Shown here in pieces: positions 15,185 to 64,000 of a stretch of DNA of 64,000 nt (positions are counted from its first letter, which is position 1; each line of letters opens with the position of its first letter). Position numbers and translations under genes: made by a program. The notes beneath the pieces are model-generated. The model saw only the letters and a list, made by a program, of their open reading frames with translations, ran no database searches and was not told the DNA's origin. The stretch spans positions 32,001 to 96,000 of IMG/VR virus record IMGVR_UViG_3300045988_025287. One strand, 5' to 3'. The DNA is from a virus.

Positions 15185-15185
15185 T

Positions 15186-37795: not shown

Positions 37796-40700
37796 TTAGA
37801 AGTTCATTAATTGATTCTGTAGGTAATTACGTTTTGATTTAGGATCTTGAGCTTCTACAATACTCTTAAACGGCGTTACTTTGATAATATTCTTAAGTAT
37901 TACAGGCATACCTTTATATACTCCTCTATCTATTATAGTAAATGGAGTTCTATCTCCAATATATGAAGCAGGATTAATCAAGTTTATGAAACTACTAATA
38001 TTATCAAACCAATTGAAAGCTGCTGTTGGAGATTTAATTAAAGCCATAAATTCAAAAGGATTATACATAGTACGGAATTCAAATGCTGAACGCATAGCTA
38101 AATAAGTTATTGACTATGTTAACCAAGTATCATAATCATCATCACCATCAACTACACTAGCTATAACGAGAGCTACTGCTGTAGATGCAGTAATAAGGAC
38201 TAATTCATTTAATACTCTTCTAACAGCATATTGTTCATACTCTTGCATATTATTATAATCAGCTAATAACTATTTAATAGCAAAATGTCTATTAGCTATA
38301 ATATTCTTCAAGAATCTACCTGTAGATCTATAGTAACCTTCCTCTATAGTTTGTAAATCTAAATTATACTGTTTAGGTTTGAATCTATCGTGTAATGCAG
38401 AAATCATAAAGTTACGATGTAATACTAAGTATGAAGCCATCGCATTGGCATGTACAGCAGCTTTATCAACTTCTCGGATAGTACCATCTATTCGTCTACT
38501 TATAATTTCAATTCTATTACGTACATCATTTAATAGTCTATCTGTAATTAAAGATTTATATTTATCATCTACTACTACATCTCCATTTGGAAGTTCTATG
38601 TACGCATCATATAACGTAGTAGTAAGCTATTTAAATTCTACTGCTCCTTTCTTTCTATCATTAGAGTAGAATTTATCTATATACTATTGCTTTGACATAA
38701 AACCTTCATTATCAACTAGACGATAATTATGATAGATACTTAATAAAGTATGACTTTTAACAGTGTAATCAGACTACGTATATCCAGCAAACCAAAAATT
38801 TTGATTAATAGAACGTAATACCTAACTCTAGTCTAATCTATCAAATAACTCTTTGTTATCTTTTACTACCTAATTAAGCATAAGTAAATAAGGTAATCTA
38901 CCTTTAGGATTAGGATTACCTATGTTCTACATCATGTTAGGTAGTTCTCTAGCAAATTCAGATCTAGCAAAGTTTAAATCTTCTAAATCAAAATACCTAC
39001 CCATCTTAGCTTCTAAAGTAGTATAAGTAGCATCAGTAAAGAAAGAAGTACCTATAGACCATAAGTTACCAGATAGGTTTACTTTAGTAACAAATCCTCT
39101 AACAATATCTAAGGCTTTACCAAAGTTAATATCATAACCTAATACGTTACCCTCAATAGGAGTTTTATTTCTACCATACATCAATCTATCTACTAACAAC
39201 TATGACTATTTATATACATTAGTAGATCCAGGTCCTTTTAATTCTTTAGAGGTTCTTATAGATAACTATTTTAGTAAATTGAGCATTAATTCTACTTCAT
39301 CTTGTTTAGCTGACATATTTTTATAATTAGCAGCCATATTGTAGAACTGTACTACAGCAGATACAGCATCCGTAGATATACTATTTGTATCTTCTAAAGG
39401 AGTAATAAACCTAGTAGGTATTACTTTAATAGGATCTCCATTAGGCATAGTAGAAAACTCTTTAACGAAATCTAAATCATCTTCTTTTGTTATAGCAAAA
39501 TCTTCTACAGCATATTTTAACTTATTTAATATTCCATCTTTACGATTCAATACCTACATAAACCTAGCTTCTATTTGTGGCATCATATTTTCATTACTAT
39601 TAGTGAGGAATGATATAAAACTCATAGCCTCATTCATTATATTAGTAATTTCATCATATAATTCCTTTACTTCAGGTTTATTCATTACTTCGTTATAAGC
39701 TTTACTATTATCATAATATTTCTTGTTAGGCTAAATAGCAGGTCCATTTTCATCAAATTCAGGATTGTACCACTCTGAAGATTCTAGTATTTTAGAATAT
39801 TTACTAGATGGTACTATCTCTGTATACTACTGAGCAAATTCAGGTAGTGGTCTAAGCTCTGTATAATATGAAGCTGGATGCATAAATCCTCTTACATCTT
39901 CATAATGATTATTATTAAACCATTCATTATATGCTTGGACGCCTGCATTTCTAGCCTATTCCATATCATGATAATACTATTCTGTATTTACTATTTCTGC
40001 AAAATTTGAGAATTTATCAGCTCCTTCTGTTTTTTGAGTAGCAGTATATGCATTTGCTATATCTTGATCTAACTATAATAAGCTTCTTTTCTCATCATCG
40101 CTTAATGAATTAATGTCAATCTTATTGGTATGAGGATCCTTATATAAATTTTGTAATTGTCTTCTCCTATTACGCAGTTTCTAATAAGTACTTTCGGGAT
40201 CTTTGTTAGCAGAATCAGATTCTAGGTTAGCTATTCTGTCATAGAAATCTTGAGTATACCTAGTTACAGTATTTCTTTGTTTCCATAACTATACTTCAGC
40301 GGTTTCACCTCCATATCTTTCTATTACTTTAGCTAAATCCTTTTCATACTTATCCTTATCAATATCATATTTAATATGTTTATTTACTTCTTCATGAAAA
40401 GCAGTTAATTCATCTGCTATTACTCTATCTATTCCAGTTTTTTCACTACCGTCTATATTAAATATATTAGATAGTAATCTTTTTTGTTTACGTAAAGATT
40501 CTAGCTATTTGTATTCTGCTTCTGTAAGTAGGTTTTCATACTATATACCGTTAATAGTCATAGATTGTGTAATACCATCTATCATACTTTGGATCTCTCT
40601 TTCAGCATCTCTAGTCTTCATAGACAGCATCTTATTTCTAAGAATATAATATTCAGCTTTGTATCTCCTTTGAGCTCTATCTGCATACCACTTAGTTAGT

Positions 40701-42472
40701 TCATCAAACCACTTCTTTTGTATATCTTCATTTTGCGGTAACACATACATGTTATTATTGTCTTTAGATATACCTAATTTTTCAGCTAATTTATCCATGA
40801 ACTATCTCTGGTCACGCTTTAATTGACCATTATTCAGTGGGGATACCTTATTACCAGAGTATGTACCATCGTCTAATTTTTCATATAATAGCTTCTATAC
40901 ATCATTACCGTATTTTTCTTTGGCTACACTTACTAATTTAACTAATTTAATACCAACTTCCATAGTTTCTCTATCTGTGGCATTTTTAGCATCATTAAGC
41001 AATTTGGCTATAATCTATTGCACAGCATTATTACTATTACTAGACATACCGAACCAATCCATGAACAAACTAGAATCATGTTTAGGATCATCTAGCCAGT
41101 TAATAGTATCTTGTATCATATTCTGTGGCATACCTAATTCTGTAAGATACTATTGTAATGCACTATAACCTTTAGATTTAAGTACATTTATAAACTTATT
41201 ATTAACATTGTCTATTTGTTGTGATAAGGTAGTAGCTAATTCTTTTATATAACTATAATCAGGTTTATCTTTGAGTATATCAGTAGTATCAAACAGATAC
41301 ATTATATCATCCATAAGAGGCTTATAGAAGCCAATATAATCATTAGATAACTATCTAATCTGTTTAGCACTAATATTCTTTGTAGGTTTACTTAAGAATT
41401 TAATACTATCGTTTATAGATTCATCAATATGCTATAAGAATTGATATATACCTTCCTCTGTTTCAGAATTAGCCAGTTGCTATATTGTAGTCTATAGTTG
41501 ATTCCACACTTTAGGATTCTTAACGGTGTATCTCTTAATAGAATTTAATCTGTCTTTTAAACCTTTCTATATCTTTTCATATAACTTAGTTACTTCGTTA
41601 ATTACTCTCATATCCTCTTGAGGTATTGGAGTAAAGTCTTCTGGATTATAAGTTACAGTTGACAATAATAACAATTCAGACATCAAAGGCTCACCATTTT
41701 TATCTATAGTTTTTATTGAAAGATTATTATTGAGATAATCTTCTAAATACTCACCTTCTTTCAATACATACATTGGAATACCTCGAACATTACTGATAGT
41801 ATCATCTATACTCTATTTCCACAATCTACTTTCATGTTCTTTTCCACCTCTACTGATATTCCTTTTAATAAAATCTTCAGTTGACAAATTTATGATTTTA
41901 GTAAAATCTTGAGGAAATAATTTTAATAAGGTGTGAGGAGAAGCAAATAGTACTTTATTCTATTTTTTTGCTTCTTCTTTAACTCTATTCCATTCATCTG
42001 TTATGAATTTTATATAATCTGGATGTTTTTCAGGATATATTAGATATTCGTTTCTTGCAATTTTGTATTCAGGTGTTCCTTTCTTAGTATTAGAATGCTA
42101 TTCTATCCATTTATCTCTTTTTGAATTAAATTCTACATCCCAGTCTATAAATTTATCTTTGAACTTACCTTTTTCAAAAGAATATGTTTTACCTATTGCA
42201 GGATGGCCGAATATAACATCTGTAGATTTAATCTAATTATTATACCAGTTTCTAAAACTGTTAGAATATATTACAGCTTTAGCTTTAATAGCAGCGTCTC
42301 TATCATTATTATATTGTTTAAGTAAATCCTAAAATAGTATAGAAGGCTCCCCATTTGGAGCCTTATCTATACCATGACCATTATTCAAATCCCAGACAGT
42401 ATATGCAACTTCTGGTACAACTCTTTCTAGTTCCTTCCATTCTGGAAGATTTTTATTTGGACATTTATACAT
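37796..42472 (-). CDS. Large virion-associated protein (1558 codons), 36 in-frame TAG
   Basis: ATG at 42470-42472 (TAA upstream in frame at 42491), TAA at 37796-37798. A codon-by-codon hand scan of the frame found only TAG interruptions. Last gene of the late operon. Function unknown; likely a cargo/ejection protein by position after the RNAP-like gene. Confidence 0.7.
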
Positions 42473-42483
42473 ATTATCTGGAA

Positions 42484-45400
42484 TTATAAATTACATATGA
42501 ATTTTCTTAACGCTTCTTCAAGTTTATCTTGAGTATTAACATTATCTCTTGCCATCTACTGTGCAAATTCATTTAAATAGGTCTGTCTTTCATCAGCTGT
42601 TAAATCATCTAACGTATCTAATACTTCAGATATTCTTTTATTACCTTGGTCATACAAGGCCATTAAATCTACACCAGTAAGTTCCTTTACCGTAGATTTT
42701 ATGTTATCTACAGTTTCATCCTCTCTGAATGTATTTTCATATACATCGTTTTCAGTATCATTCTCATCTGCTTCTTCAAGTACAACACCTTCAACACTAT
42801 CGTCAGTATCGTCTTGTTCGTACTCAAATATTCTATCCTGCTCAGCTATAGCGTAATTCATACCAGAATATGATGGTAATTCTCCAATGTGATGCATATA
42901 CGCTTTATCTTGCTCAAAGTAAGTTCTTTCTACTTCATCAGTCATATCAGATAATGCATCAAGATTATTCAAAGCTTCAAAATAATCCCATTCATTTTCC
43001 TTATTGAATTCAAATTGAGTTGATAAACCGTATTCTACGATAGTATGACCTTTATAGCTGTATCCTTTTTTGGATATCAAACCATATATAGGAGTATATA
43101 AAATTCTACCAGTAAGTTTACCTTTCCATGTTCTTTCTGGTTTATCAATATAACCTATTAATCTATATACATGCCAATTAGCAGGTTCAAAACCTAAACT
43201 GTCTTTTATCTTAACATAAGGAGGGAATATTGGATATTTTATATCATCTACTGTTACCCAGTTTAATGGTTTAATAACAGCAGCCTACATATCAGTTCTC
43301 TATCCAAATATAATATTTGGCATAACTGCATCTTTATTAAGGCTTACAGATCTTAATGGAGCTTGATATTTACCACCATACATGTCTACAGGTCTTACAA
43401 GCTTATCATTCTACCAATTATTCAAGAATAAATCCTCAATGTCATTATAAGATTTATCTGCATTATTAACCATCTGATCTAATTTACCTTGAATGAATTG
43501 AGTATAACCTATATTAATCCTTTCGCTATTAGGTAGGTACTGAAAGAACGCATTCATTACTGTATTATCTCCAGATGTGTAGAAAGAGTATACGGCTAAA
43601 TCTCTGAACAATCTCTTAACTGAAGGTTCGGGATCATCTAATAACTATCTCCAATAGTTGATAAGATTATTTGCTTGTGCCTAATCTGCATTTAACTATT
43701 CTGATCTATCAATAAAGTCTAATCCTTCCTTATTAATATTAGGTATTAAGTAGTTAACGAAATCATTAGCTATAGTACCATCATTATTTAGTAAGTGACT
43801 TAATCTAGGATTACCCTTTAGTACTTCCTACTTAAATCTATACAGTCTATTAGGTATAGAATTACGTCCTTGGAACATAGTATTTAAGTCTATATTGTTA
43901 TCCTTAACATATTGATTAAAGAATTGACTCTTTATCTAAGCTTCCATACCATTTATTACAGCGCTAAGTAATTTAGAATCAGCATTAGCGGCTCTACCTA
44001 CTAATGATAAAGCTATATGTTTTTGATTAGCAAATTGATCAGTATTACGTAGTAATAAGTTTCTAAATATAGATGAACCCAAAGGTATACTATTTTCTGT
44101 TTTTGTACGAATGAATGTTTCATTAAAGAATCTAGTAACCTCACCTTTAGCGAATTTACTATTTTCTTCCATGTCTAACATACCTTTATAATATATATCT
44201 TGCTCAGCAAAAGTTTTACCAGTCTTCTTAGTATCAATCTTTGAGAATTTAACAAGATTAGCTAAATCGTCTGCATAAGGTTTAAGAGCTAACCAAGCGT
44301 GGTATATTCTTACTTGTTCTTCATTAAAGTTTTTAGAATCTTCTGGATTAATCTTTAATAACTATCTTGTTCTTGATGTTACTTCTCCTTTATCGTCAAT
44401 ATAAGTTCTAAATAGATCTTGATATTCTGAAGCTTTAGTTTTATTTTTTCTGTTTATATATTCGTACTTTCTACGTAACTTTTTAGTAGGATCATATTTA
44501 TCTAATACTTTTTCAATAGCTTCTTTTTCAAGTTGGGAAGGAGTCTTAGTTCTATCAATACCGTACTTACCTTTAGTCTTAAGTACTTCATTAGCCATCT
44601 CTACTAAGATAGGTTGTCTAACAAAATAGAATGTTTGAGCGCCTTTACCCGTACGTAATAAGAATGACACCATATTATATGTCCAAGCATTAACATTAAG
44701 CTTAACAATGTAAGGATCTTTAGCTATATCTACGAACGCATTAATCATAGCAGATAACCAGTCTAATATGCGACCTCCTTTAGGATTACCTATTGTAGGA
44801 TAGTCATATATTCGTCCAACATCTTCTATCTATAAAGTTCCTGTAAATTCATTGCTCTACATTTTAATACCTACTAACTAAGTAAGGATATGATGAGCGT
44901 TATTCAACGCAAAAGGACCAATACCAGCTTTACCGCCAGTATATTCCGCCTTTCTATCTTCTTGGTATCTAGGAGTATATACTTCAAATGGTTCTGGATG
45001 ATATGAACTAGTGCCTTCAATATCTTTAAGTATTCCCTTAACTGTATCAGTAGCATCATCAATAGAACCTTTTAACATAGCTGAATTATCCTTAGTAAGA
45101 AGAACTTTGATATACATTTTAATAATGTCATTCTTATAAGCACTGGCTACATCTTCTCTAGTTAATGCACCGCCGTGAGTTATAATTCCCCCGTTTTTGT
45201 TAAAGGAATATCGAGCTACATATAGTTTATCAATATCGAAGTCAGAACCTGTAAGCTTAGTAAATCCTTCAGGAAGCATAATAGTATCACCCATAATCTC
45301 AGGGAATACATCTACGAATCTTAGTGCGGATATTGATGCAATAGACTGTGTAGGAATACGATAACCAATTCCGGTAGCATCTGCCCTCTATCCTATGATA

Positions 45401-48400
45401 TTATGATCTAATAACCATTTTCTAGCTTGTTTAAATGTCATCTTACTGTAGTTAGGTATCATATGTTTAAATAGATTTATACTTACTACAGAGTCCATAG
45501 AACCATCCTTATCATTAATCATGAGTAATGGTTTTCCATCATTGATCATATCTTCTGTAATAACATTCTAGCTAGTAGCTTCGAGTCCAAATGCAGATCT
45601 TTGAATGAAAGCTCCACCAGGCATATGAACATCAATAACTAGTTTATTAATCATAGATATAAATCTACTTTCTAACCATTTATTATCAGATAAAGCAGAC
45701 AAAGGTATTACAAATGCATTATTCTTAGTTTTAAGACCAGATAATACATTATCATTAGCGTCAGATTCTCTAGCGTCACGCTCTAACATATTACCTAACG
45801 CTGTAACATTTATATTACCGTCTACAAACAATTCATCTACTATATCCTATCTACCCATATTAGATAAAGTATTCAATGCTCCCATTACTGTATCATTGAT
45901 TTCTCTACCTGTTACTTGAGAACCGTCTGGACCATATAAATCATCCTTACGTAAATTAGATAAGTTTACTTTTAAGAACTATGTACCAGCCATCTGTTCC
46001 GGATGAGTATGAGGATTAGTCTCTAACTGCTGTCTGATATATTTAAACTTCTACCTATATGTTACGAGTTTACTCAAATCAGTAATAGTATTACCCTATC
46101 CGCTTTCTGCCCAGTCTACTATAGAAGCGGATAATACAGTCTAACCGTCTTTAAGTTCTATTTCACTATCTTTAGCCTTTCTATAGTATGCAGTAGGAGA
46201 TTCTGAACCAGCTTTAACTGCAGAATCAAACATAGCCATATCAATAGGATCATTAGGATCTACCATTCTGTCATATAAAGCTTTAATATCTCCAGTAGCT
46301 ACAGATTTAAATAACGGGAATAAAGCCATCTTATTAAAGTAAGGTATACCTAATCCATTTCTAAATCTGGTACCGAATGCTATATACTTCATAGCATTTA
46401 ATATAACTTTATTAGCTTCTGCATATAACTTAGGATCAGATTCCCATTTATCTGCAGTATCAGGATCAGTCAATACTTCAAATGCTCGTTTAATGTCAGC
46501 ATTCCATACACCACGCATTCTAAGTAAATCTCTAGTCATATTAGGACTTATATATACAGCTGCATCAGCCACATTAACTCCTTTCTTATAACCAGCTACA
46601 GCTACTTTAGCTGCTTGTTTAGCAATTTTAGTTTCTTCAGGGTAGGTATTTTCTATATCACGTATGCTAAGATCTTTTACCTCATTCCAAGCTTCTTCTC
46701 CTAACATTTCCTATATAGTTTCTTTTATATTTGCCCTATAGAACAAACCTTCATACTCATGGTATTGTTTATCCATGATTTCGTGATCTTTAAGCTCTGT
46801 AACTACATATTCATCACGCATTGGATCATTAAAGAAGTCTAATCTATTATTCAAACCAGTTGATGTCAAAGAACCTAAACGTTTGATTTTGTCAATAGAT
46901 ACGTCTGTTATACCCTCTCTATCATACTTTACTTTGTAATACGCAGGTGAACCACTAAATAGCTTTTCTACTTCTTGAATAGATATTATACTATTCATCA
47001 CATAGTCAGATATCATATCAAATACTGCATATGCTTCCGCATTAGCACTATCCACACTCTAATATCTAGCTGATCTTTCTGTTACTACATTATCATCAAG
47101 TAATACATTACGTATACTCCATATATTACCTTGATCATTCATAGTAATTAAACCAAGATCTCTAGCATATTCTAATTCTTTCTTTACTCTACGATTAATT
47201 ACTCCAGCTAAGAAAGCCTTTTGTGTTTCTGGAGAAGTATTAAAGAAATAGTCTTTAGCTAATTGTAAACACTCTTTAGCTGATTTGGTAGGATCATTAA
47301 AGTTAACAAAACCTTTATTAGTATATATACCGGTCAAGAATAAGAATCTAGCTCCATTGCCTTCCAAAGTTACAGTGTGCTTAACTCCATCTTTATCTTT
47401 ATAATCATATTTATTAGGAGTATGGAAGTTTTTAATACGTCTAGATGGTTCGATCCAATCATTATTTATAGTACCATCATCGTTATAATGTAACCCAGTC
47501 TCTGGATTATAATGATTAGGATCATCATCTATCTATCTTAAGCACAACTCTATTTGGTTTAGTTCATCGTAACAATAACCTAATAGATAGTCCATAACTT
47601 GTTCGCCATACTGAACAAAAGTTTGACCATTATTATTATTGAATCTAATAGGTTCGTGTGGTAATGTTATTCCTTTAATGAAATGATATGTTTTCTTATC
47701 TGCTACTGTAGGGAATATTATTCTATTATTAAATACAGCTGTCATTTTAGCTATATAGTCCTCTCTATCAGTAATACCGTGGTAATCTCTACCCTTATCT
47801 CCAGTAGTAGTATCCTTAAAGTTAATAAGGGTTTCCATTGATAGATTTCTATTACCTCCTCTAACTGCCTGCAATATAATAGAATGTTCATTATAAACTA
47901 CAGATTCTAATTCCTAGAATACAGTAGGATCTGATACTATCTCATTAAGTCTATCTTTAGCAAAATTATTCTGTGATACCATATAATAAGAATTACCATC
48001 AGGACCATAGCTACTCAAACTATTATCTGTAGCATGTGTAAATGCATAATAATTAGCTAACTCTTTAACGTAACCTATATTATTCCATACCTATGTAGGA
48101 TCAACAGTTACTTCATTCACTTTAATTTCTTTAATAGTACTATCATTATTTATAGCATTTTTAATTGCTTCAAGTACACTTACTATTTTCGGAATGCCAC
48201 CGAAATTAACAGTTGAACTGGAGAACTCGCTGATAAGAGTAAATGCATCTGATTTAGGATTACCATATCTACCAGATAATAACATTTTGTCTATGGTAGG
48301 TACATCAATACCGATACCTATTACATTAAACATGTTAACTAAATACTTCTTAAGCATTTTCTAGTTAGATGTTTCGTGCAAATCAATATTTCTATCTCCT

Positions 48401-54400: not shown

Positions 54401-54972
54401 TTATCATCTTTCATACTACCGTCAAGTCGAGTAATGGGATTGATTTCTTTATCTATTTCTATTAACGCGTTATCTAGATTGCCTTGTTTAAGACTACCTG
54501 TAATATAACTATTAAGATAGTTATTGTTAAATTTACCAGATATAGCAGTATCGTATGCAGATTTATTATTAACTTGCATTAATGATGCTTCCTACAGCTA
54601 TTGTTTTAATTGTTCATTAGTAGGATCCTAGCTTAACTATCTAGACAATTCTATTACTGCTCTACTAGAGTTTATATAATCTTTTAGGCTGATTAAGGTA
54701 TTATAATCCTAATCAGCCATCACATACTCTCCTAACTTAGCATCTCTTTCAGTTTGCGCTTTTGTTAAATTCCAATCATAGAATGCGTTAGAAGCCCAAT
54801 CTGTGAAACCATAATTGTCAAGTGCTTCTTCGTAATTAGCATCTGGATTAGCCATACGATGCATATACTCCTCAGTATTAATCTGAGGAGCTATCATAGC
54901 ATCATACATTGCTGTTCTTTGTCTAATACTATCTATTAATGATGTATCATATACTTTCTTTTTCTTTGCCAT
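42484..54972 (-). CDS. Giant protein (4162 codons) containing a virion RNA polymerase-like DFDID motif, about 60 in-frame TAG
   Basis: ATG at 54970-54972, TAA at 42484-42486. The hand scan of all 208 sequence lines in this frame found no TAA/TGA. GSDFDIDK at 45229-45243 resembles the catalytic DxDxD loop of crAss-like/N4-type virion RNAPs. Gly/Ala-rich hydrophobic segments near the N-terminus. Confidence 0.7.
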
Positions 54973-54974
54973 AT

Positions 54975-56948
54975 TTATCTGCCTAATAATTGTTGTGCTG
55001 ACGTCTGGTATTCATCTTTAGCTTGAGAAGATCCTCCAATACCACTAGAAGATCCTCCTTGCCATCTTTGATTTACTCTTTGCCAATACTCTGATGATGT
55101 ATATGAGTTAGGTAATGTTCTATAAGCATCTACTTCATAATATTCAACGCCATCTTGTCCTACTACTTCAGTTACTTTAGAAGCTCCAAATTGTTGCTTA
55201 AGAGCGCCTTTAGTAGTCTATCTGCCAAATGGCATAGAATAACTAGAAGCCATTTCACTAAACAACACAGGATAATTTACCCACATACCTGTTCCTAATG
55301 ATTCTTCAATTCTTTCTTTAGGTATTCTAAGTTTGCCGGATAAAGCCATACTTCCAGGCCCTGTCTTTACTACTTTATTATTTGGTATAAATTGAACTCC
55401 ACTTAATTGACCACTTTCTACTAACTCTCTAAACGGAAAACTAGTATCTCTTCCTATACCGGCATCTCTACGAGCTTTTCTACCAGGTCCTTCATTACCA
55501 GCAATCATACTAAATACTGTTTCCGGTAATAAGAATCCTTCTGTAGTATTAAATTGATATCCCTAATGTTTAATACCGTCACTATCTTGTATTTCTGTAG
55601 ATAATGCTCCAACACCCGTTAATAAGTCGTCTTTATCGAGTAATCCTACTGGCGCACTTACTTTATTAAGCGCAGCATTTACTCCTTTTAGATAAGATTT
55701 GGTACTAAATTCTTTACTATCCTAACTAGTTAACGGGGAGAAACCAGCTACTCTTTGGAATTCATCTCTTACTACATGCTTACTAGCTAAACTAACCATT
55801 TGATTCTATAACTGTTGAGCTCTATTACTAGCTGCTACTGCTGTTACATAGTCTTCATCGTTTCCAGTTTGTCTGTATCTAGTGCTGTATTCATTAGCTG
55901 CCTACACCATAGAACCATATTCATTCTGCATTCTATCTATATTGCGTAGACCTTTACGTGCATCGTCTGCAATTTTACTGTTAGGATACTTAGTGATCAA
56001 ACTAGATATATAGTCTCTATAACTATTAAACTTATTACCTATACCAGACATAGTGTTTCTAGTAATACTATCATTTAAAAAATCTAATCTAGTAGGATTA
56101 GGTCTTATTACTTCTTCATTACTTCCCCTGTTACTTTGTTTAGCCATAGCTAACCAATATGGGTCTACAGTATCTTGATTCACAATTCTATCTCTCTGTG
56201 AGTCAGCTATCATTCCTACGAATCTCTATCTAGCTAATTCAGCATCCCCTCCAGAAGCATCTAATGCTTCTCTATAATACTGTTGACCCTAAGGCGTACT
56301 AATTAAATCATTAAACTTAGCATCTGCAATATCGTACAATGTATCATAAGTAATGCCTACTCTATTGTATTTGACTCCATCTTTCCATACAGACCCTATT
56401 GAACTAGGTTTAAGATTACTAAAGTAAGGATTAGCTAGTTCATCTGCAGTCATATAACGTAATGGGGTAATTTGATCAAATACTCTTTTACTACCTAAAG
56501 TATCATAATTAGGTATATTTGCAGAATCCCAGCTTCGTTTATATCTTCCTTCTGCTTCCATTTTAGCTCTCATCTCAAGACCTGCCCTAAGATTATCAGC
56601 ACTTTCTTTGAGTAAACTTAAAGATCCGTAATCAGTATTACTAATTATAGATTGTAAATTAGCACGAAAACCTGCATCTTTTAAGGCATCTGGATTAGAA
56701 ACTATTTGATTAATAGCATCTTGTACATCTTGACGATTAATAGTTAAATTGTAGTAATTCTATGTGTCTATTGCAGATGGTGATCTAAATTCTCCAAACT
56801 TTTGTAACTAAGTATTAAACTATTGTGCAGCCTCATCTACAGCTTGCTTCTACGCTGCCCCTATTCTATATAATTCACCAAAGTTAATAGGTACATATGT
56901 ATTTAATATAGGAGCTTCCGCTGCTCTATCATATCTATTAGCCTACAT
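54975..56948 (-). CDS. Late protein (657 codons), 12 in-frame TAG including codon 2
   Basis: ATG at 56946-56948 with TAG at 56943. TAA at 54975-54977. Overlaps the upstream gene by 11 nt. Frame scanned by hand. Confidence 0.65.
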
Positions 56949-58779
56949 TGTTACCTCCTTTTCTTAACCATTTATTAAACTGTCTAATAGTATCTGCTGT
57001 ATAACCAGATTGCAAAAATGGAGCATACATAGCTAACATTGCATTATCTCTAGCTTCCTGATTACGCATTAACTCTCTATTCTGAGCCCATTGACTTAAC
57101 TGACTTAAACCAGTCCTAAGTATATTTCTAGCAGTAGCTCTATTCTGAGCATTAGCTTCATTAGCCATATTCGTAGCATTAACCCATTGCTGTCCTAAAC
57201 TATTCATAGTATTAGCATAATCACCTAAGTACTGATTGTTAACATTACTTTCTTGAGATCTTAAACTAGCTATAGCTCTGTCAGTATTAACAGCTGACTG
57301 TAATCTATAAGCTAAATTAGCTCCAGTACTAGTATTAATCTGACTAGCATTATAATTACTAGTAGCTCTATTACGGTTTAAATCTTCAATAGCAGGACTA
57401 ATATCATATCTACGTCTACGCATCGTATTACTAATACTAGTAGCATAAGGATTATATACTGCATCAACTGTTTCAGGTCTACTAGTAAATAGATTAGACA
57501 TAACAGGAGTTAAAGAAGCTATCCCTGACAATGCGCTTCCTACTTTATCAAATAATTTATTACGTCTGTCTGCTCTAGTTTCTCTATAACTAATATCATT
57601 AGGTGTAGCACTAGGAGACTCTACAGTATCATAGTCTGTATCATACACAGATTCTACTGTTGGAGCGTCATACCAAGTAAACGGTAATTCTGGTTTACCT
57701 TCATCAATTAATCCTGCACTTGTAGAAGGAGTAGTTCTGCGTCTCTTAACTGAAGTACTACTAACACTTGTAGGAGTTGTAGTTGATGCAGTTTGAGTAT
57801 TATTAGGGTTAACAGGTATATGATACCACTGATTATTACCAGTTCCCCACTGTACTCCAGCCCCCCATTTACGATTAGGGTTATAGATAGCATCTACTAT
57901 TCTATCTCCTAAACCAGGTTTAATCTCATCACCTAAAGCAGCTGCTTGTATCTACTTAGTCTTAGGTTTAATACCTTTACTTTGTTTAACAGATTCCTGC
58001 ATAGCAAATAACTAATCATGAATCATATTATTATTCATTTCATTTAATTTTGCTGCATTCTCTGCAAATCTGTCATTATACTTACTTTTCTTTTTTGCCA
58101 TCATTTTCTCACCAAGTTGTGCAAATGTTTCTTTTCTACCAGGTACTTTAAGCTTATCACTTAATACTCTACTGCCTTCAGGTAAACTAACTAAATTACT
58201 ATCAGTAGGATTATTATTCTCTGGTACTTTACTTATACTTCCATCTGGAGTCTATATTAATTCACCATCATCTACGTAAGCTAAAGAGGAAGACACTCCT
58301 CCATTAGCCATAGTATCTGTATTCATCCCTATCATATCTTCATATGCTTCACTTTGTAGGTAATTAGTACCTTGTACAGCAGCTCTATTACTATAAGCAT
58401 TCTTCTTAATTGCTGCTCTCTTTCTACGTAATCTTCTATTACCGAATGCTCCAATTAGACCACTACCAAGACTACCTTCATCATAATCTGTGAACGAAGT
58501 CATTTCAGCTTCTTCACCAGATCTGCCTATTAGCCCTATACCAGCTCCTACTGCAGCACCAATTGGACCAGCAACTTGGAAACCAGTAGCTGCACCACTG
58601 GCTATGTCACTTACAGATTGTGCAGCAGCTTGCCCTCCTGTAGTAGCGTTAGATTTCTAAAAAGGAGTAGTTAAAGTATTTAATATATCAGGAGCACTTT
58701 CAAGCATGTTATTCCCAATTTCTTTGAATTGAGTTCCAAATGCATATGCTGGTACTTTTGTTTTCTTTTTACTTTTCAT
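56938..58779 (-). CDS. Late protein (613 codons) with Gly/Ala-rich hydrophobic N-terminal region, 4 in-frame TAG
   Basis: ATG at 58777-58779, TAA at 56938-56940. MKSKKKTKVPAYAFG... then GAATGFQVAGPIGAAVGAGIGLIG. Possible ejection/internal protein. Confidence 0.65.
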
Positions 58780-58780
58780 A

Positions 58781-61700
58781 TTAAATTAATGAATTTCTGT
58801 ATGTTGTTGTAATCTATGGTATTTCAAAAGTATGATCTATATCAGAATCTAACTCATAATCGCATATCATATACTTACCTCTTAACCTAGCAGGTAACGA
58901 TAACGCATCTTCATTCTTATCTGCTCTAGGTACTGGGAATCTAAATGTATCTTCTCTATAATCAGTTATTATATGTTGTTCAGGAGTAATAACATTACCT
59001 TCTTCATCAAGTTCTTCTTTAGTATGTTCTCTAACTGATTCTTGATGTTTAGTACTGAATTTCATATAATCTATGATATCGTCCTTAATAGACTCTTGAT
59101 TACCATCTCTAAACTCTCCTTGTAATCTAACATTATCAAATACTTTAGTATAAGGAGCATTCTTATTAATAACTATTTCTAATTTAGCTTTTCTATCTAA
59201 AGGAGTTAACCCTATTACTCCAGTATCATGTATAGTATGCAATTCATTGTCTTTTATTGCTACTACTCTATCAGAAATAGGTAACGACCATTTAGGATTA
59301 AATGTATAGAAAGATGTAAATCTACCTAACTACTCATTAAATATTAATGGTTTGTTTAATATATTAAACCACACCTCATTATACTTCTTATCAAATAAAG
59401 ACATAGCTTTAGCCCTATCTTCTTTAATGTTTTTATTAAAGTAAGATTGTACCTGCTTTTCTTTAGATAACTAACTTACTTGACCTGTATAAGAACATAT
59501 TTCGTTCTTATCATAATCGTACCAATAAAGCACATTATCTGAATTAATTATACTCTTATCATTCTTAATAGACGAACCATTAGTAGTAGTTACATAGTCG
59601 AATCTACTTAATATACCACCAGTACCTAATACTAACTGATTTACATTATCATCAGTAATAAGTGACCTTTCATTGACAGAAGCTACTCCTACTCCAGTAT
59701 CTTGGAAATAGAATAGTCTATCTTTGAATACTTTTAGATTGGTTATGTCTCCCCACTGATTATCTACATCTAAGTAATCAGCTACTTTGAATTTAGACCA
59801 CTAATCTATTACTTCATTATTAGTCTTAGCCTATGAAGTTAATATTCTATTAGTATATCTTACATCTTTATCGGCATACATAGAATTAGGTACATACAAT
59901 TTACCAGTATTCTATGCAGAATAAACAGAATTATATACAAAGTAAGGAAGATCTTGTACATGTATGTCCTACATCTAAGTAGGCTCTAACTGCAACCAAG
60001 AATCTGCAAAATTTGAACTAGTTACTGTTCTATGAATCTGATCTCCGTGGAATAAATTCATATTAATAGAACTTTCAAATGGTATATAAGCTCCTATATA
60101 ATTCTTCATTCCGTCCCATTCTTTAGCGTCAGGTAATTGGAATAGCATAGTATTAGGATAATCTAATAAGCTTAGATAAGTATCTCCTCCAAATACATAC
60201 TTGCTGTCGTGCGCTGCTATACTTATGTATACAGAATTCTGTCTAGATGAGAATGTGTTACCACCATATATAGAATTACCATCACGTTTAACATTAAATA
60301 CAGGAATAGCATTAGTAGAATCAAAAGGATGAAGTTCTGGATATTTACTAGTAGGTACGCTATTAAATCCAGAGAATACATTCTATAATTCTGGTACATG
60401 GGCTATAATACACGGACCAGCTGGACCTTGTAATGATTGATTATCATTATGAATAAAGTCAGACATAGAGTAGTTAGTATAAGTTCTATTACCAACATTT
60501 ATTCTTTTAGCTACTACATCTGGAGCTCCATACATATTATAATCTATATTGGGTGGGTATTTAGCATCTTCAATATACGATGTAGATTGAGATTGTCCAA
60601 ATGTTGGAACGAAATATTTAGCTATTGATGCTCCACGGTATACCTTATTACCTCTACTATCTTGATAAGGGAAACCTACAGCAAGTACGTTAAGCCCCCA
60701 TCTCTAGCCATAACCTACATATGGCACAGTATCTTGCTGCAATACTCTACCATCTATCTGAGTAACGTAATCCGCCGCAGCAAATATACTACGACTTACA
60801 CTATTACCAATAGTATTACCATTTACATAGTTATCTTTAAAATCATCAAACTTGCTATCATTTACTTTACCACCTACAAATGGAGAATAGTATGAGCCTA
60901 TACCATCTAAGTATACACTTCCTTCAAACAGTTTAGTTGCATCATCCCCTTGTACACATATTTCTGGAGATACTAAACGTATATAATCATTTACTCTCAT
61001 AGTAAGAGAGAAATTACCAATATCTTCCGCTGTACCTGTTGATATTGCTAATTGTTCACCAATCAAACTACAGAAGAAAGGAGTAGGTCTCATCTCCAAA
61101 CTACTATCTAATTCAGATCCCTATCCTACATATTTATCCTGCTCTTGAATTCTATACTCATATACGTAACTACCTACTGTTTGCATAACTACAGTCCTAT
61201 CACGTTCAGTTCTATCACAACGAACTATCTCGTAACTCACTGCACCTACAGGCATCTTCTTTACTTTGAATTCTACACCTAGAGCATTACCTATAAGAGT
61301 ATTGTTTTCATATCTAAACGGAGGCATTTGTGAAGCATGAGGCATTCTAATATCACCTATCCAGAGTACAGGAGAAGCTACAGATTTATCATTATAGAAT
61401 ATTATACCAAATCTATATATCTCATCTCTTTGGTAACCTCTATAATTAGCAGCTATATATGGATCAGCATAATTGGGTATATATGGATTATTCTTCTATT
61501 CTTCAGTAGGCTGTACTATTTCAGGCATTTTATTATCGCCCCTGTTTATATACCTAGTATTATTCCTAACAGTAGGTACATCCATACTACAGGATTGATT
61601 CAATCTAAACTTATCTTGTTTACTACTTAGATTTATATCTGTAGTTACAAAGGAATACTCTATATTAATACCATAACCGCCTAATTCACCATCCTTGTTG

Positions 61701-62953
61701 TATATATATGTATTCTAAGAATTAGATGCATCCTTAGTATACTTTACATTGTTGAAAGGATTTATACAATCATGCGTAATAGGAATACGTTTAATAGCTT
61801 CATCATCTGTTATAGACAGACGAATGTTATTACTATCTAAACTAGATAATAGCTACACACTCCCTTCTGAATTAGCTCTGTAAGCTCTAGCATCATAGTC
61901 ATTACCATCTTCATCTTCTGGTATCCAAGTATTCTCTGTTACATTAGCTGCAAATAATCTATTTTGCATTTTAGCAAGAGTCTACGCTATAAACTGATAA
62001 CCAGTCATAGCATTGAATTCATCTACAGATATATCACTTAAAGTAGCTCCATAATCTACATACTGTATACTTGTTTGACCATCGGGTATATCTATCTCAT
62101 CTACTATACTAATAGTAGGGGTAGAATTATTCTGTTCATAGAATATACGAATTACTCTTAACTTATTAAAGTCCTAAAGTGATAATTCAGTAGATAGCAT
62201 TACTGATTTATTTGATGCTTTATTTAGACCAGTACCTTTATATTCAGAACTACCTTGGTTAGTTACACTATTTGTTAAGTGAATTAACTCACTCATTGGA
62301 GAAGTAACAGTTTCAGTGCCATGCACATTAAATAATTGATAACAATATGTTACCATTCCAGCTTTAAGATTACCTTCAGATAACCAACGGAATTTAAACG
62401 GCAATAAACTTACTACTGGAGTTATTTCTAATGAACCAGGGTTGATTATATTTCCATTCTCATCTATAAGATTAGAATTGTCTATATAATCATTACTCAT
62501 TATATTAACAATCTTGATAGGGCTATTTCCATCAGTGAAGTATATTTTTATATTAGTATCTGATTCATAGTTACCTACAATACTTAGTGTAGGATTTTTA
62601 GATAAATCTTCACACAATCCTAGAGCTCCTTTACATACTAATTTAATTTGAGGCATATTACTATCAAACCCCATTAATCTGTATATCTTATTAATGTTAT
62701 CGGATGTTTTAGTTATTACTACTGCAATGTCATTTATAGTAGTAGTACCTATTATAGTCTCATCTTTAGGTATAATAGTATCGTATCTTCTAGGGTTCTC
62801 TATACTTTGTAATACTCCTGTAGTTCCTCCATCGTTGGTGACAACACGGACATCCTCAGCATACCTGTACTGAGTATCCGGTATCAAATTTACATCCTGG
62901 TCCATATTAAGACCTTGTGTAAATGTATTAACTTGTGCAGTATTACTTATCAT
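58781..62953 (-). CDS. Large tail/virion structural protein (1390 codons), 16 in-frame TAG
   Basis: Start MISNTAQVNTFTQGLNMD at 62951-62953 (alternative ATG at 63016). TAA at 58781-58783. Frame scanned by hand: TAG only. Confidence 0.65.
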
Positions 62954-63671
62954 ATTGTCCCTCCTTAATTTTAACTCTTCTCCAAGTAAACCCTCCAGCG
63001 TGTTTATGTCGTGCATTTTTTCTTAAGCAATCACTGATGCTCTAACGAGAAACGCCTGTTGCTCTACTTGCTTCTCTTATAGAGTCATATTGAGCTATTA
63101 TTGTATTGCCATCATAATCGAGTTGTACTACCGGTCTTTTATTTTTTATCTCATATTCTTTTATGTGGTATTCATCCACTCTATTAGCTTTAGTATAGGA
63201 CCATTGAAATCCGCAACATGATTTCTTTCTTCCATCACAACAGGCTCTTATATTATCAGGCAAAGCTTTAAGCTCTCTAGAAGCCTATCTAACACTATCG
63301 TATTCTCTTACATAGTTACCCTATTTATCATAGCAATAAATCTTTCTACCATCTACCTCACAACAATTATAGTATCCATATTCATGTATATATTTAGATT
63401 CAAGATATTTGATAGTACTAATATTATCCGCGCACTCTTCTACTATTATAAAATTAAAATTTTCGCACCCGATTTCATCAAAATCTTGCTGTAATTTTTT
63501 ATTAATTCCTTTACCGTTGTGTAGACTTCTATAATGGGCTTCGTAACGAGCTCTTATATTAGTAGAGGATCCTATGTACATTCTACCGTTCAAGTTATTC
63601 TTTATAGCGTATATTCCACAAGTATAACGTGGAATAAGTTTACTATTTGCTTTTATAAACTTTGTTTCCAT
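62943..63671 (-). CDS. GIY-YIG homing endonuclease (242 aa) with three in-frame TAG
   Basis: GIYAIKNNLNGRMYIGSSTNIRARYEAH. Two IENR1-like repeats: GNYVREYDSVR-TAG-ASREL and GNTIIAQYDSIREASRATGVSR-TAG-SISDCLRKNARHKHAGGFTWRRV. TAG at 63321, 63285 and 63042. TAA at 62943. The ATG overlaps the upstream TAA (TAATG). Confidence 0.85.
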
Positions 63672-64000
63672 TATGGTCTATTCTAATTATAAATATCTTG
63701 TCGTTCTCCTACTGTACTATAAAAAGTATCATGGGCATCTATTTCCGGGTATAATTTTAACCAAGAGTTCTACACCGAGGCCAAATCATCTACGGTAGGC
63801 ATCATAGCTTCAGCATATGCTTGCTTACGATAGAAGTTATAAGAGTTGCGTATATCATAATAATCTCCCTGACTTATTTGACCTTTTAACTTTTTAGGAT
63901 ACATTAATTTCATAGTAACATACCAGTATATAGCTTCCTTATAAGACTCTAAATCTGGTATCATTGGCATACTATCTTCATCTGTATATATAGCATAATA
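63671..64000 (-). CDS. 3' end of a late structural gene (5' part outside the window)
   Basis: Frame is open from nt 64000 down to the TAA at 63671-63673, with TAG at 63770 and 63683. Confidence 0.6.

What the first reader, a model, noticed from the sequence alone, without database searches (positions are those of the whole stretch)
37796..64000. UAG is a frequent sense codon in every late gene; the fragmented ORF track hides five huge genes
I split the minus strand into codons by hand for each frame. All interruptions between the listed fragments are TAG: 36 in 37796..42472, about 60 in 42484..54972, 12 in 54975..56948, 4 in 56938..58779, 16 in 58781..62953, 3 in the GIY-YIG gene and 2 in the partial gene. 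The frame never shifts. No in-frame TAA or TGA occurs, and each gene ends in TAA next to the following ATG. Local contexts fit Gln: SVR-TAG-ASREL parallels SIREASRATG in the sister repeat, and TAG sits inside QQSQQPQQE-TAG-IPVE. Stop-codon recoding is established for crAss-like and other gut phages (code-15-like). The density here (1.4-2.3 percent of codons) is striking.
Basis: partly seen in the sequence, partly recalled or inferred. Interest (0 to 1): 0.75.

Follow-up and report, generated by a model that had tools for sequence, protein, structure and literature searches.

The report
Amber-recoded crAss-like phage, intron-split suppressor tRNA
In this gut crAss-like phage the late genes read the stop codon UAG as glutamine, which is already known for this phage family, and the tRNA that should decode UAG sits in the same window, unannotated in a related RefSeq genome (cr115_1), because a self-splicing-type intron interrupts its anticodon.

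Summary
All seven minus-strand genes in 37796-64000 are single frames with 36/60/12/4/16/3/2 in-frame TAG and no in-frame TAA or TGA. TerL at 492..1 adds 4 more.

TAG means Gln. In codon alignments with 78 related contigs, TAG alternates with CAA in 50 columns and CAG in 44. The next most frequent codon appears in 10 columns.

This recoding is already known for the clade (Suoliviridae, the 'delta' crAss-like phages). RefSeq relatives cr114_1 and cr115_1 are annotated straight through comparable TAG densities. The early + strand block is code-11 compatible and uses TAG as a real stop, so this is a late-gene switch and not a genome-wide code 15.

At 1220..920 (-), just upstream of TerL, there is a tRNA gene split by a 228-nt group-I-type intron in the anticodon loop. 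Splicing by the group I rule gives anticodon CUA.

Default tRNA scans miss it, and it is unannotated in cr115_1, whose complete genome has no other suppressor. Homologous introns split CUA tRNAs in Lak megaphages and other TAG-recoded contigs. Splicing and charging are inferred, not shown.

The parts
37796..42472 (-). Late gene g1, 1558 aa, 36 in-frame TAG (2.3%), ends in TAA. Giant virion protein of unassigned function.
   Evidence: One search gives the counts. One search gives a weak PHROG hit to phrog_37651 'virion structural protein' (E=1.7e-4 on a 118-aa TAG-free fragment). It is syntenic with cr114_1 gp020 and cr115_1 gp53. No Pfam hit.
42484..54972 (-). Late gene g2, 4162 aa, 60 in-frame TAG (1.4%). 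Giant protein containing the crAss-type virion DNA-dependent RNA polymerase, with the DFDID metal-binding motif at aa 3244.
   Evidence: One search gives the counts. One search matches PDB 6VR4 (phi14:2 gp66 RNAP) at E=4.3e-28 with TGSDFDIDK aligned. locates the motif. One search hits phrog_16227. It shares 73% nt identity with cr114_1 gp021.
54975..56948 (-). Late gene g3, 657 aa, 12 in-frame TAG, the first at codon 2. Function unassigned. A cargo-type role is suggested only by its position between the muzzle and RNAP genes.
   Evidence: No Pfam, PHROG or PDB sequence match. Its TAG columns alternate with CAA/CAG in relatives.
56938..58779 (-). Late gene g4, 613 aa, 4 in-frame TAG (0.65%). 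Function unassigned.
   Evidence: No informative Pfam, PHROG or PDB match. Relatives show TAG/CAG polymorphism.
58781..62953 (-). Late gene g5, 1390 aa, 16 in-frame TAG. Crassvirus tail muzzle protein.
   Evidence: One search finds full-length homologues at 97% identity. One search gives PF25731 crAss_MUZ (E=0) and PF25729. One search gives the codon alignment with 75 relatives.
62943..63671 (-). GIY-YIG/NUMOD1 homing endonuclease, 242 aa, 3 in-frame TAG. It is inserted between the muzzle and tail-tubular genes, is absent at this site in cr115_1 and is present in cr114_1.
63671..64000 (-). C-terminal part of the next late gene, a tail tubular protein by synteny. It has 2 in-frame TAG and runs off the window.
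   Evidence: It has 85% nt identity to the cr115_1 gp48 region.
1..492 (-). Start of the large terminase gene, with 4 in-frame TAG in the 164 codons held in the window. It is the first recoded gene downstream of the suppressor tRNA.
   Evidence: 75% nt identity to cr115_1 TerL.
1186..1220 (-). Exon 1 of tRNA(CUA): acceptor 5' strand, D arm, anticodon stem 5' strand and loop bases C32 U33 C34 U35. It ends in U.
   Evidence: ARAGORN with introns allowed. One search shows the spliced 73-nt RNA folds as a cloverleaf (-27.3 kcal/mol). One search shows ARAGORN calls the spliced sequence tRNA(cta). One search shows acceptor-stem covariation across the intron.
958..1185 (-). A 228-nt group-I-type intron inserted between anticodon bases U35 and A36. 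P1 pairs exon GCUCU with intron GGAGC, giving a U.G wobble at the splice site, and the last intron base is G.
   Evidence: One search gives Rfam Intron_gpI at 21 bits, E=0.009, below the gathering score. One search shows the homologous intron in L138 reaches 56 bits against a gathering score of 50. One search shows compensatory changes in P2, long-range P3 and P9. One search shows the group I rule gives a unique CUCU|AAC solution.
920..957 (-). Exon 2 of tRNA(CUA): A36 A37 C38, anticodon stem 3' strand, variable loop, T arm and acceptor 3' strand.
   Evidence: One search shows the spliced loop CUCUAAC is identical to the loop of the intronless tRNA(CUA) at the syntenic site of cr53_1.
9542..37712 (+). 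Early/replication block that is compatible with the standard code. It has 7 TAG in 6,576 codons. Five of them lie 2-13 codons before the TAA/TGA end of the frame, so they act as real stops.
6188..6907 (-). Free-standing GIY-YIG endonuclease gene with 5 in-frame TAG, lying inside an otherwise TAG-free block of small genes.

Best explanation
The window comes from a Suoliviridae (Uncouvirinae-like) crAss-like phage that uses two reading conventions.

Early and replication genes (+ strand, 9.5-37.7 kb) and most of the small minus-strand genes at 1.4-8.4 kb are written in the standard code. Some of them terminate at UAG.

The late block is written with UAG as a glutamine codon. It comprises TerL, the muzzle protein, two unassigned proteins, the 4162-aa RNAP-containing giant, a 1558-aa virion protein and two homing endonucleases. 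UAG makes up about a third of its Gln codons. These mRNAs therefore cannot be translated to full length until an amber suppressor is available.

The suppressor is phage-encoded. It is a tRNA gene at 1220..920 (-), at the boundary between the standard-code small genes and TerL. Its anticodon loop is interrupted after U35 by a 228-nt group I intron. Self-splicing would join CUCU to AAC and create the anticodon CUA. The mature tRNA would then be charged with Gln by the host and compete with RF1.

Shown here:
- The frames, the Gln meaning by codon substitution, and the partition between the two gene sets.
- The existence, conservation, covariation and unique CUA junction of the split tRNA.
- Its association with TAG-recoded contigs.

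Inferred:
- That the intron actually splices.
- That the tRNA is glutaminylated.
- That the arrangement times late-gene translation.

The confidence value applies to the whole chain. By itself, the TAG = Gln late-gene recoding is about 0.97, and the split tRNA being the functional suppressor is about 0.75.
For: Frames and stops:
- The counts are exact and no in-frame TAA/TGA occurs.
- All complete late genes end in TAA.

Gln identity:
- 113 alignment columns hold TAG.
- The alternates are CAA in 50 columns and CAG in 44. The next most frequent, GAA, is in 10.
- At the window's own TAG columns the cells are TAG 1426, CAG 138 and CAA 114.

Gene identities: crAss_MUZ and RNAP 6VR4.

Clade:
- cr114_1 and cr115_1 are syntenic and annotated through their TAGs.
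- The literature reports TAG to Gln in late genes of the delta group and the late-gene regulation model.

Early genes: TAG falls near the frame ends. Five of 7 lie within the last 13 codons, with P about 3e-5 by my own binomial estimate.

Split tRNA:
- ARAGORN -i finds it and there is a weak Rfam group I hit.
- The spliced RNA forms a cloverleaf and is called tRNA(cta).
- The only junction that leaves a 7-nt loop, a 5' exon ending in U and an intron ending in G is CUCU|AAC.
- The intron guide sequence tracks the exon: GGAG pairs with CUCU in CUA hosts and GAG pairs with CUU in Leu-UAA hosts (alignment).
- 30 of 36 consensus pairs carry compensatory changes, including the acceptor stem across the intron, P2 and long-range P3.
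- The homologous intron in L138 passes Rfam's gathering score.
- The spliced Lak-B1 tRNA aligns end to end, without a gap at the junction, with intronless tRNA(CUA) genes of cr7_1, cr53_1, cr124_1 and cr60_1.
- cr53_1 carries an intronless tRNA(CUA) behind the same leader at the same site upstream of TerL.
- The complete cr115_1 genome has the split tRNA and no other suppressor.
- The locus is 94-99% identical between the window and cr115_1 while the flanks are about 75%.
- Contigs carrying intron-split CUA tRNAs gain long-ORF coverage when TAG is read as sense (0.00 to 0.68, 0.27 to 0.73, 0.52 to 0.87). Contigs whose homologous intron sits in Leu, Arg or Lys tRNAs mostly gain little, 0.00-0.12, except L104, 0.23 to 0.44.
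Against: - There are no expression, splicing, aminoacylation or peptide data.
- The window's intron scores only 21 bits on Rfam Intron_gpI, against a gathering score of 50.
- The tRNA body is unusual. It has a U1.U72 mismatch, U3-A70, an A73 discriminator and A54 in the T loop. It does not carry the G3-C70/G73 Gln-like acceptor features that I recall for E. coli tRNA-Gln. This is a comparison from memory, and the G3-C70 pair is seen here in cr114_1's suppressor. Charging with Gln therefore rests on the codon data alone.
- No intronless allele of this exact tRNA was found that would fix the junction directly.
- The Gln budget does not discriminate: CAA+CAG is 3.3% in late genes against 3.6% in early genes, rising to 4.8% with TAG.
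- The window holds only 64 kb of a roughly 100-kb genome, so a second suppressor in the unseen part of this particular genome is not excluded.
Confidence: 0.75

Rival explanations
1. TAG is Gln in late genes, but the split tRNA gene is a dead relic disrupted by a selfish intron. Suppression would then come from another source: a host tRNA, near-cognate reading by host tRNA-Gln(CUG), or an undetected phage factor acting on RF1.
For: Suppressor tRNAs are detected in only about 40% of TAG-recoded phage genomes, and alternative mechanisms have been proposed. The window's intron is below Rfam's threshold. The tRNA has an atypical acceptor end. Two relatives, L095 and L107, lack a G at the expected last intron position.
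Against: The locus is the most conserved stretch of the region, 94-99% identical against about 75% in the flanks. Stems of both the tRNA and the intron keep pairing through compensatory changes across distant phages. Intron-split CUA tRNAs co-occur with TAG-recoded contigs in at least five different tRNA bodies. The gene occupies the site where relatives carry an intact tRNA(CUA). 137 sense TAGs in essential virion genes need efficient decoding.
Confidence: 0.13
2. The intron is a purposeful gate and not just a passenger. Suppressor maturation, and therefore the switch of genetic code, would be delayed or conditioned by the rate of self-splicing, for example by guanosine/GTP or Mg2+ availability or by a phage or host splicing factor. 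This would add a timer to late-gene translation.
For: The intron appears fixed. There are 8 intron-containing occurrences (not checked for duplicates) and no intronless copy of this tRNA in the collections searched. It has no endonuclease ORF, so it cannot spread by homing on its own. Introns recur specifically in CUA tRNAs of unrelated recoded phages, including Lak. The gene sits exactly at the boundary between the two codes.
Against: The same intron family also sits in Leu(UAA), Arg(UCU), Lys(UUU) and Ile(UAU) tRNAs of phages that show little sign of TAG recoding, as expected for a mobile element that targets U|AA-type anticodon loops. Close relatives (cr114_1, cr53_1) manage with intronless suppressors. 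No kinetic or expression data exist.
Confidence: 0.2
3. The TAGs are artefacts or real stops. On this reading the region would be a set of fragmented pseudogenes, an assembly or sequencing error, or short genuine ORFs.
Against: There are no TAA/TGA in 8,885 codons, against about 9.4 per 100 codons off-frame. The same TAG positions recur in dozens of independent contigs. Full-length homologues exist. RefSeq relatives are annotated the same way.
Confidence: 0.01

Closest known systems
TAG-to-Gln late-gene recoding in 'delta' crAss-like phages (Suoliviridae). RefSeq examples are cr114_1 NC_055897 (Aurodevirus intestinalis) and cr115_1 NC_055898 (Birpovirus hiberniae). Described by Yutin et al. 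2021 (PMC7886860) and Borges et al. (bioRxiv 10.1101/2021.08.26.457843).
   Same: Same gene order (TerL, then muzzle, two mid-size genes, RNAP giant and a 1.5-1.8-kaa protein), same strand layout and similar TAG densities. The early block is TAG-free. A suppressor locus lies upstream of TerL.
   Different: The window is a mosaic relative and not the same genome. The muzzle gene is 94% nt identical to cr115_1, but the RNAP giant is 4162 aa against 4493 aa and aligns only with cr114_1, at 73%. The suppressor here, and in cr115_1 where it is unannotated, is intron-split. cr114_1 has an intronless tRNA(CUA) with a Gln-like acceptor stem (UGGGGCG...).
Group I introns in bacterial tRNA anticodon loops (cyanobacterial/plastid tRNA-Leu(UAA), Azoarcus tRNA-Ile). 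This comparison is from my own knowledge of the IC3 class.
   Same: Small size of about 200-250 nt and no ORF. The insertion is in the anticodon loop after a U that forms the U.G pair of P1, and the terminal base is G. There is a conserved core (GUAGAGACUAUA...CCUAAG...AAAUAGUCC). Members of the same sequence family sit in phage tRNA-Leu(UAA) at the classical U34|A35 site.
   Different: The host is an amber-suppressor tRNA and the insertion lies one base further 3' (U35|A36). The setting is a phage that depends on the tRNA to read its own late genes. Self-splicing has not been tested.
tRNA introns of Lak megaphages (Devoto et al. 2019, PMC6784885).
   Same: These are TAG-recoded phages of Bacteroidota hosts with 'enigmatic' introns in tRNA genes. 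That paper also found that the true excision point is offset by one base from the software prediction.
   Different: The paper lists introns in Tyr(GTA), Phe(GAA), Gly(TCC) and Thr(TGT) tRNAs and lists Sup-CTA tRNAs as intronless. Here Lak-B1, B3, B6 and B9 are found to carry a CUA tRNA split by an intron that is 77% identical to the window's over 187 nt. In the parts of the paper I read, the introns are not classified as group I.
NCBI translation table 15 (TAG = Gln throughout).
   Same: It gives the correct proteins for every late gene.
   Different: It is not genome-wide here. Early genes use TAG as a terminator, so a single table mis-annotates one of the two gene sets.

Membership tests
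TAG-recoded (code-15-like) crAss-like phage | Conserved late genes contain in-frame TAG and no in-frame TAA/TGA | tested here: met
   137 TAG and no TAA/TGA in 8,885 late codons.
TAG-recoded (code-15-like) crAss-like phage | TAG positions correspond to Gln in homologues | tested here: met
   alternates are CAA (50 columns) and CAG (44), against 10 or fewer for any other codon.
TAG-recoded (code-15-like) crAss-like phage | Phage-encoded tRNA with anticodon CUA | tested here: inconclusive
   No contiguous tRNA(CUA) is present. An intron-split gene gives CUA if it is spliced by the group I rule. Splicing has not been demonstrated.
TAG-recoded (code-15-like) crAss-like phage | Recoding confined to late/structural/lysis genes, with early genes compatible with the standard code | tested here: met
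TAG-recoded (code-15-like) crAss-like phage | Peptides spanning TAG positions carry Gln | not testable with these tools
Crassvirales / Suoliviridae | Hallmark proteins: muzzle protein, virion RNAP with the DxDxD motif, TerL | tested here: met
   crAss_MUZ, E=0; 6VR4, E=4e-28; TerL start 71-75% nt identical to cr114_1 and cr115_1.
Crassvirales / Suoliviridae | Synteny and nucleotide similarity with classified members | tested here: met
   Species or genus assignment was not attempted because the genome is mosaic.
Group I intron (tRNA-type, IC3-like) | 5' splice site after a U that pairs with G in P1, and a last intron base of G | tested here: met
   The sequence shows exon GCUCU pairing with intron GGAGC, and the intron ends ...GCAUG. 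The guide sequence covaries with the exon between CUA and UAA hosts.
Group I intron (tRNA-type, IC3-like) | Match to the curated covariance model (Rfam RF00028) at the gathering score | tested here: inconclusive
   The window scores 21.3 bits, E=0.009, below the gathering score of 50. The homologous intron in the CUA tRNA of L138 scores 56 bits, above it.
Group I intron (tRNA-type, IC3-like) | Conserved paired core supported by covariation | tested here: met
   P2 and long-range P3 have compensatory changes in 2-7 of 11 sequences per pair. The P7 strands and their flanks are invariant, so they carry no covariation signal.
Group I intron (tRNA-type, IC3-like) | Guanosine-dependent self-splicing | not testable with these tools
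   Needs an in vitro assay or RNA-seq.
tRNA-Gln | Identity elements for GlnRS (weak 1-72 pair, G2-C71, G3-C70, G73, G10, U35), recalled from E. coli work | tested here: inconclusive
   One search shows U1.U72, G2-C71, G10 and U35 present, but U3-A70 and A73. The identity rules of the Bacteroidota host are not known to me.
NCBI genetic code 15 used genome-wide | TAG never terminates | tested here: not met
   in early genes TAG sits 2-13 codons before the next stop, which indicates genuine termination.

The most novel reading that the evidence does not exclude
The switch of genetic code in this phage lineage, and recurrently in Lak megaphages and other TAG-recoded gut phages, would be gated by a ribozyme. 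The amber-suppressor tRNA exists only after a group I intron cuts itself out of the anticodon, so the rate or conditions of self-splicing would set when late genes become translatable. As a by-product, intron-split suppressors would account for part of the roughly 60% of TAG-recoded phage genomes in which no suppressor tRNA has been found.
Probability: 0.2. Interest if true: 0.85.

Novelty: new variant of a known kind. Interest (0 to 1): 0.5.

Why it matters
The recoding itself is established biology, so the practical lesson is about annotation. Code-11 gene calling shreds this region. Code 15 applied to the whole genome over-extends early genes that stop at TAG.

The intron-split tRNA(CUA) is the useful addition.
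- It fills the 'missing suppressor' gap for a RefSeq crAss-like genome (cr115_1) and for four Lak megaphage genomes.
- It shows that default tRNA scans under-count suppressors.
- It gives a simple recipe to find more: allow introns, then place the junction so that the 5' exon ends in U and the intron ends in G.
- It raises a testable idea, that maturation of the decoder and hence the code switch depends on RNA self-splicing.

Tried and rejected
- Pfam on g1-g4 and the TerL N-terminus gave no hits.
- PHROGs on ten TAG-free fragments gave only two weak 'virion structural protein' hits.
- PDB sequence searches of g3 and g4 gave nothing useful. Their 'cargo' role therefore stays an inference from gene order.
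- The Gln codon budget, early against late, was not discriminating.
- The base following sense TAG shows no bias (chi-square P=0.46).
- The sigma-70 promoter and intrinsic terminator scan around the tRNA found no terminator by its criteria. The hairpin plus UUUU at about 672-705 is therefore only noted.
- A direct BLAST of cr114_1's suppressor against the window found nothing. That result prompted the intron search.
- The anticodon arm pattern CCCGGCTCTAACCCGGG in IMG/VR found only unrelated tRNA bodies.
- An intronless allele of the window's exact tRNA was absent from IMG/VR and from the metagenome contigs.
- ARAGORN's own junction, which gives anticodon CGA (Ser), was rejected. It leaves a 5' exon ending in C and an intron ending in U, and it does not match the intronless homologues.
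- L095 and L107 have a homologous split tRNA in TAG-recoded contigs but no G at the expected intron end. This is unresolved.
- Literature searches found no description of a group I intron in a phage suppressor tRNA in the held library. That library is incomplete.

Full report
**1. Observation**

I split the minus strand of the five stated intervals into codons. Each interval is a multiple of three, begins with ATG and ends with TAA.

| Interval | In-frame TAG | Length (codons, terminal TAA included) |
|---|---|---|
| 37796-42472 | 36 | 1559 |
| 42484-54972 | 60 | 4163 |
| 54975-56948 | 12 | 658 |
| 56938-58779 | 4 | 614 |
| 58781-62953 | 16 | 1391 |

None of them has an internal TAA or TGA. 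A whole-window map using only TAA/TGA as stops confirms 3 TAG in the GIY-YIG gene (62943-63671) and 2 in the partial gene at the right edge.

The terminase gene starting at 492 (-) has 4 TAG in its first 164 codons, and a second GIY-YIG gene at 6188-6907 (-) has 5.

Off-frame, TAA+TGA occur about 9.4 times per 100 codons in these genes. Their absence from 8,885 in-frame codons therefore cannot be chance.

The true range is 0.65-2.31%.

**2. What the genes are**

- Gene 58781-62953 is the crassvirus muzzle protein. Full-length homologues at 97% identity exist, and Pfam gives PF25731 at E=0 plus PF25729.
- The 4162-aa protein contains the crAss-type virion RNA polymerase. An internal 760-residue segment (about aa 3075-3830) matches PDB 6VR4 (phi14:2 gp66) at E=4e-28, and the catalytic TGSDFDIDK is aligned.
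- Genes 62943-63671 and 6188-6907 are GIY-YIG/NUMOD homing endonucleases.
- The 1558-aa, 657-aa and 613-aa proteins have no Pfam or PDB sequence match, and only one weak PHROG 'virion structural protein' hit was found, for the 1558-aa protein. Calling the two mid-size proteins 'cargo' would rest on gene order alone.

**3. Where it comes from**

The nearest annotated records are Suoliviridae crAss-like phages from human faeces.
- cr114_1, cr113_1 and cr109_1 share about 73% nt identity over the RNAP gene.
- cr115_1 is 94% identical over the muzzle gene, 94-99% over the tRNA locus, and about 70-78% elsewhere. Its RNAP gene has a different length, 4493 aa.

The genome is therefore a mosaic relative of Aurodevirus and Birpovirus (Uncouvirinae).

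In cr114_1 the syntenic CDSs are annotated at full length through 38, 69, 9, 5 and 31 TAGs. Both the phenomenon and its density are already on record for this clade.

The literature says the same:
- Delta-group crAss-like phages reassign TAG to Gln, mostly in late genes (PMC7886860).
- Recoding has been proposed to regulate late and lysis genes (bioRxiv 10.1101/2021.08.26.457843).

**4. Which amino acid**

I fetched 78 related IMG/VR loci around the muzzle gene. I aligned four genes codon by codon, keeping TAG as a separate symbol.

- 113 columns contain TAG in at least one genome.
- The alternative codons are CAA in 50 columns and CAG in 44. GAA is next, with 10.
- At the window's own TAG positions the cells read TAG 1426, CAG 138 and CAA 114. 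Two hypervariable columns read AGT/AGA, and every other codon appears 3 times or fewer.

CAA is two mutations away from TAG. Its frequency therefore shows synonymy and not just mutational proximity. TAG means Gln.

The conservation of TAG across independent assemblies also rules out assembly error.

**5. It is not a uniform code 15**

The + strand block (9542-37712, replication genes) has only 7 TAG in 6,576 codons. Five of them lie 2-13 codons before the TAA/TGA that closes the frame.

By my own binomial estimate the chance of that placement is about 3e-5. In early genes TAG therefore terminates. Late genes all end in TAA.

Within the late block, TAG is 32% of all Gln codons (137 of 428).

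**6. The decoder**

Default ARAGORN and Rfam scans find only tRNA-Leu(UAA), tRNA-Arg(UCU) and an odd 'His(AUG)' tRNA.

In cr114_1 a tRNA(CUA) lies between the last small standard-code gene and TerL. The syntenic interval in the window (1460..492, minus strand) has no plain tRNA and no similarity to that gene.

Two results then pointed to a split gene. A permissive Rfam scan gave a weak group I intron hit at 1195..992 (21 bits, E=0.009). ARAGORN with introns allowed found a tRNA at 1220..920 with a 228-nt insert in the anticodon loop.

ARAGORN placed the junction so as to give anticodon CGA. That placement makes the 5' exon end in C and the intron end in U. Shifting it by one base does three things:
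- The exon ends in U, which pairs as U.G with the intron's GGAGC (a canonical P1).
- The intron ends in G.
- The loop becomes C-U-C-U-A-A-C, giving anticodon CUA.

This is the only junction that satisfies all three constraints. The spliced 73-mer folds as a cloverleaf, and ARAGORN calls it tRNA(cta).

**7. Independent support for the split tRNA**

(a) Conservation. No intronless allele was found.

(b) No other suppressor. The complete cr115_1 genome contains no other suppressor tRNA.

(c) A wider intron family. A 16-nt core motif of the intron retrieves 58 viral loci. Applying the same junction rule gives:
- CUCU|AAA (CUA) in at least five different tRNA bodies, namely the window family, Lak megaphages, L109/L110, L114, and L131/L138.
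- CUU|AAAA (Leu-UAA, the classical bacterial site) in six loci.
- Single cases of UCU, UUU and UAU.

(d) Guide sequence. It follows the exon: GGAG with CUCU and GAG with CUU.

(e) Covariation. RNAalifold on 11 pre-tRNAs finds 30 of 36 pairs with compensatory changes. These include the acceptor stem formed across the intron, P2, the long-range P3, P9 and the T arm.

(f) Rfam threshold. The intron in the CUA tRNA of L138 passes Rfam's curated threshold, 56 against 50 bits.

(g) Intronless homologues. The spliced Lak-B1 tRNA aligns end to end at 81-85% identity, with no gap at the junction, with intronless tRNA(CUA) genes annotated tRNA-Gln in cr7_1, cr53_1, cr124_1 and cr60_1. cr53_1 has its intronless gene behind a leader that is 100% identical to the window's over 37 nt in BLAST, at the same site upstream of TerL and with the same loop CUCUAAC.

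(h) Association with recoding. Contigs with intron-split CUA tRNAs gain a lot of long-ORF coverage when TAG is read as sense. Contigs with the intron in Leu, Arg or Lys tRNAs mostly gain little, with L104 the exception.

**8. Relation to what is published**

- Devoto et al. reported 'enigmatic' introns in Lak tRNAs (Tyr, Phe, Gly, Thr) and listed intronless Sup-CTA tRNAs. They also noted a one-base offset of the true excision point.
- Yutin et al. made the same remark for crAss-like phages.
- I found no paper in the held library that describes a group I intron in a phage suppressor tRNA. That library is incomplete, so this is absence of evidence only.

**9. Mechanism and confidence**

Shown:
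- The reading frames and the Gln meaning of TAG.
- The partition between early and late genes.
- The presence, conservation and structure signals of the split tRNA(CUA).

Inferred:
- The intron self-splices.
- The mature tRNA is glutaminylated by the host enzyme.
- Late mRNAs stay untranslatable until the mature tRNA accumulates.

Whether the intron adds regulation or is a passenger mobile element is open. It also occupies ordinary tRNAs in phage contigs that show little sign of recoding, and close relatives have intronless suppressors. Both facts favour the passenger view. Its apparent fixation, its lack of a homing endonuclease and its recurrence in CUA tRNAs keep the gating idea alive, at about 0.2.

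**10. Verdict**

As stated, it is already-known biology in a new mosaic genome.

This is why I rate the whole as a new variant of a known kind, with moderate interest.

Noticed in passing
window 10625-15608 (+): A cluster of curated ribozyme/ncRNA families in the early region, all above Rfam gathering scores: RAGATH-6 (10625-10775), RAGATH-7 (10870-11092), two Hatchet ribozymes (12016-12112, 13887-14022) and RAGATH-9 (15448-15608). L109, another contig with an intron-split CUA tRNA, carries a RAGATH-1 hammerhead.
   Followed up: no
window 16826-17007 (+): Rfam 'tmRNA_permuted' hit at 56 bits against a gathering score of 47. ARAGORN did not call it in the window. The relatives cr114_1 and cr115_1 have annotated tmRNA genes with tag peptides ending ...RIAA. 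A phage tmRNA in a phage that plays with stop codons may be worth a look.
   Followed up: no
window 26881-26952 (+): A tRNA scoring 46 bits on Rfam that ARAGORN calls His(AUG). Its anticodon is at position 32 and its anticodon stem has only 3 good pairs. Its true identity is unclear.
   Followed up: partly
window 672-919 (-): About 250 nt between the tRNA 3' end and TerL. The region is G+C-richer than its surroundings and is 94% identical to cr115_1 while the flanks are about 75%. It has a weak BTnc060-like hit (E=0.15) and ends in a GC hairpin followed by UUUU. That hairpin is also 95% conserved in cr114_1, which has a tRNA-Met in this interval. The terminator scan did not flag it.
   Followed up: partly
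window 1221-1265 (-); L146 2455-2497: A roughly 40-50-nt leader immediately upstream of the suppressor tRNA (AACCATCAGAACCCTTACGTGGAGGGTAAGAATATCCACGTG). It is 100% identical over 37 nt in BLAST and reads identically over about 42 nt in cr53_1, which belongs to a different subfamily (Loutivirinae). There it precedes an intronless tRNA(CUA). It contains overlapping inverted repeats and may be a promoter or a processing signal.
   Followed up: partly
window 15182, 18078, 21929, 31155 (+) and about 7982 (-); tandems at 24662-24667 (+) and 2175-2180 (-): Every TAG that appears to act as a stop in early or small genes is followed by T. This includes two in-frame TAG-TAG tandems, which may be reinforced stops. 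Only 32 of the 137 sense TAGs are followed by T, and none is tandem. The sample is small.
   Followed up: partly
window 6188-6907 (-) and 62943-63671 (-): Both homing-endonuclease genes use sense TAG (5 and 3), including the one embedded among TAG-free small genes. This matches the published idea that recoding delays endonuclease production.
   Followed up: partly
window 42484-54972 compared with cr115_1 (L090 21021-34502): Strong mosaicism. The muzzle gene and the tRNA locus are 94-99% identical to cr115_1. The RNAP giant and the next gene, in contrast, differ in length (4162 against 4493 aa, 1558 against 1845 aa) and align better to cr114_1.
   Followed up: partly
L010 892-1626 (Lak-C1); L093, L124; L096, L101 and similar loci: Longer inserts of 600-780 nt from the same intron family sit in other phage tRNAs. 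One is a type-II tRNA in Lak-C1 whose insert holds two intron-like cores. ARAGORN's calls for these ('Stop tta', 'Leu gag') are unreliable.
   Followed up: no
L095 715-999 and L107 (regions extracted): Homologous split tRNAs in clearly TAG-recoded contigs have exon 1 ending in CUCU. The base before the expected exon 2 is A or C instead of G, so the 3' splice site is unclear.
   Followed up: no
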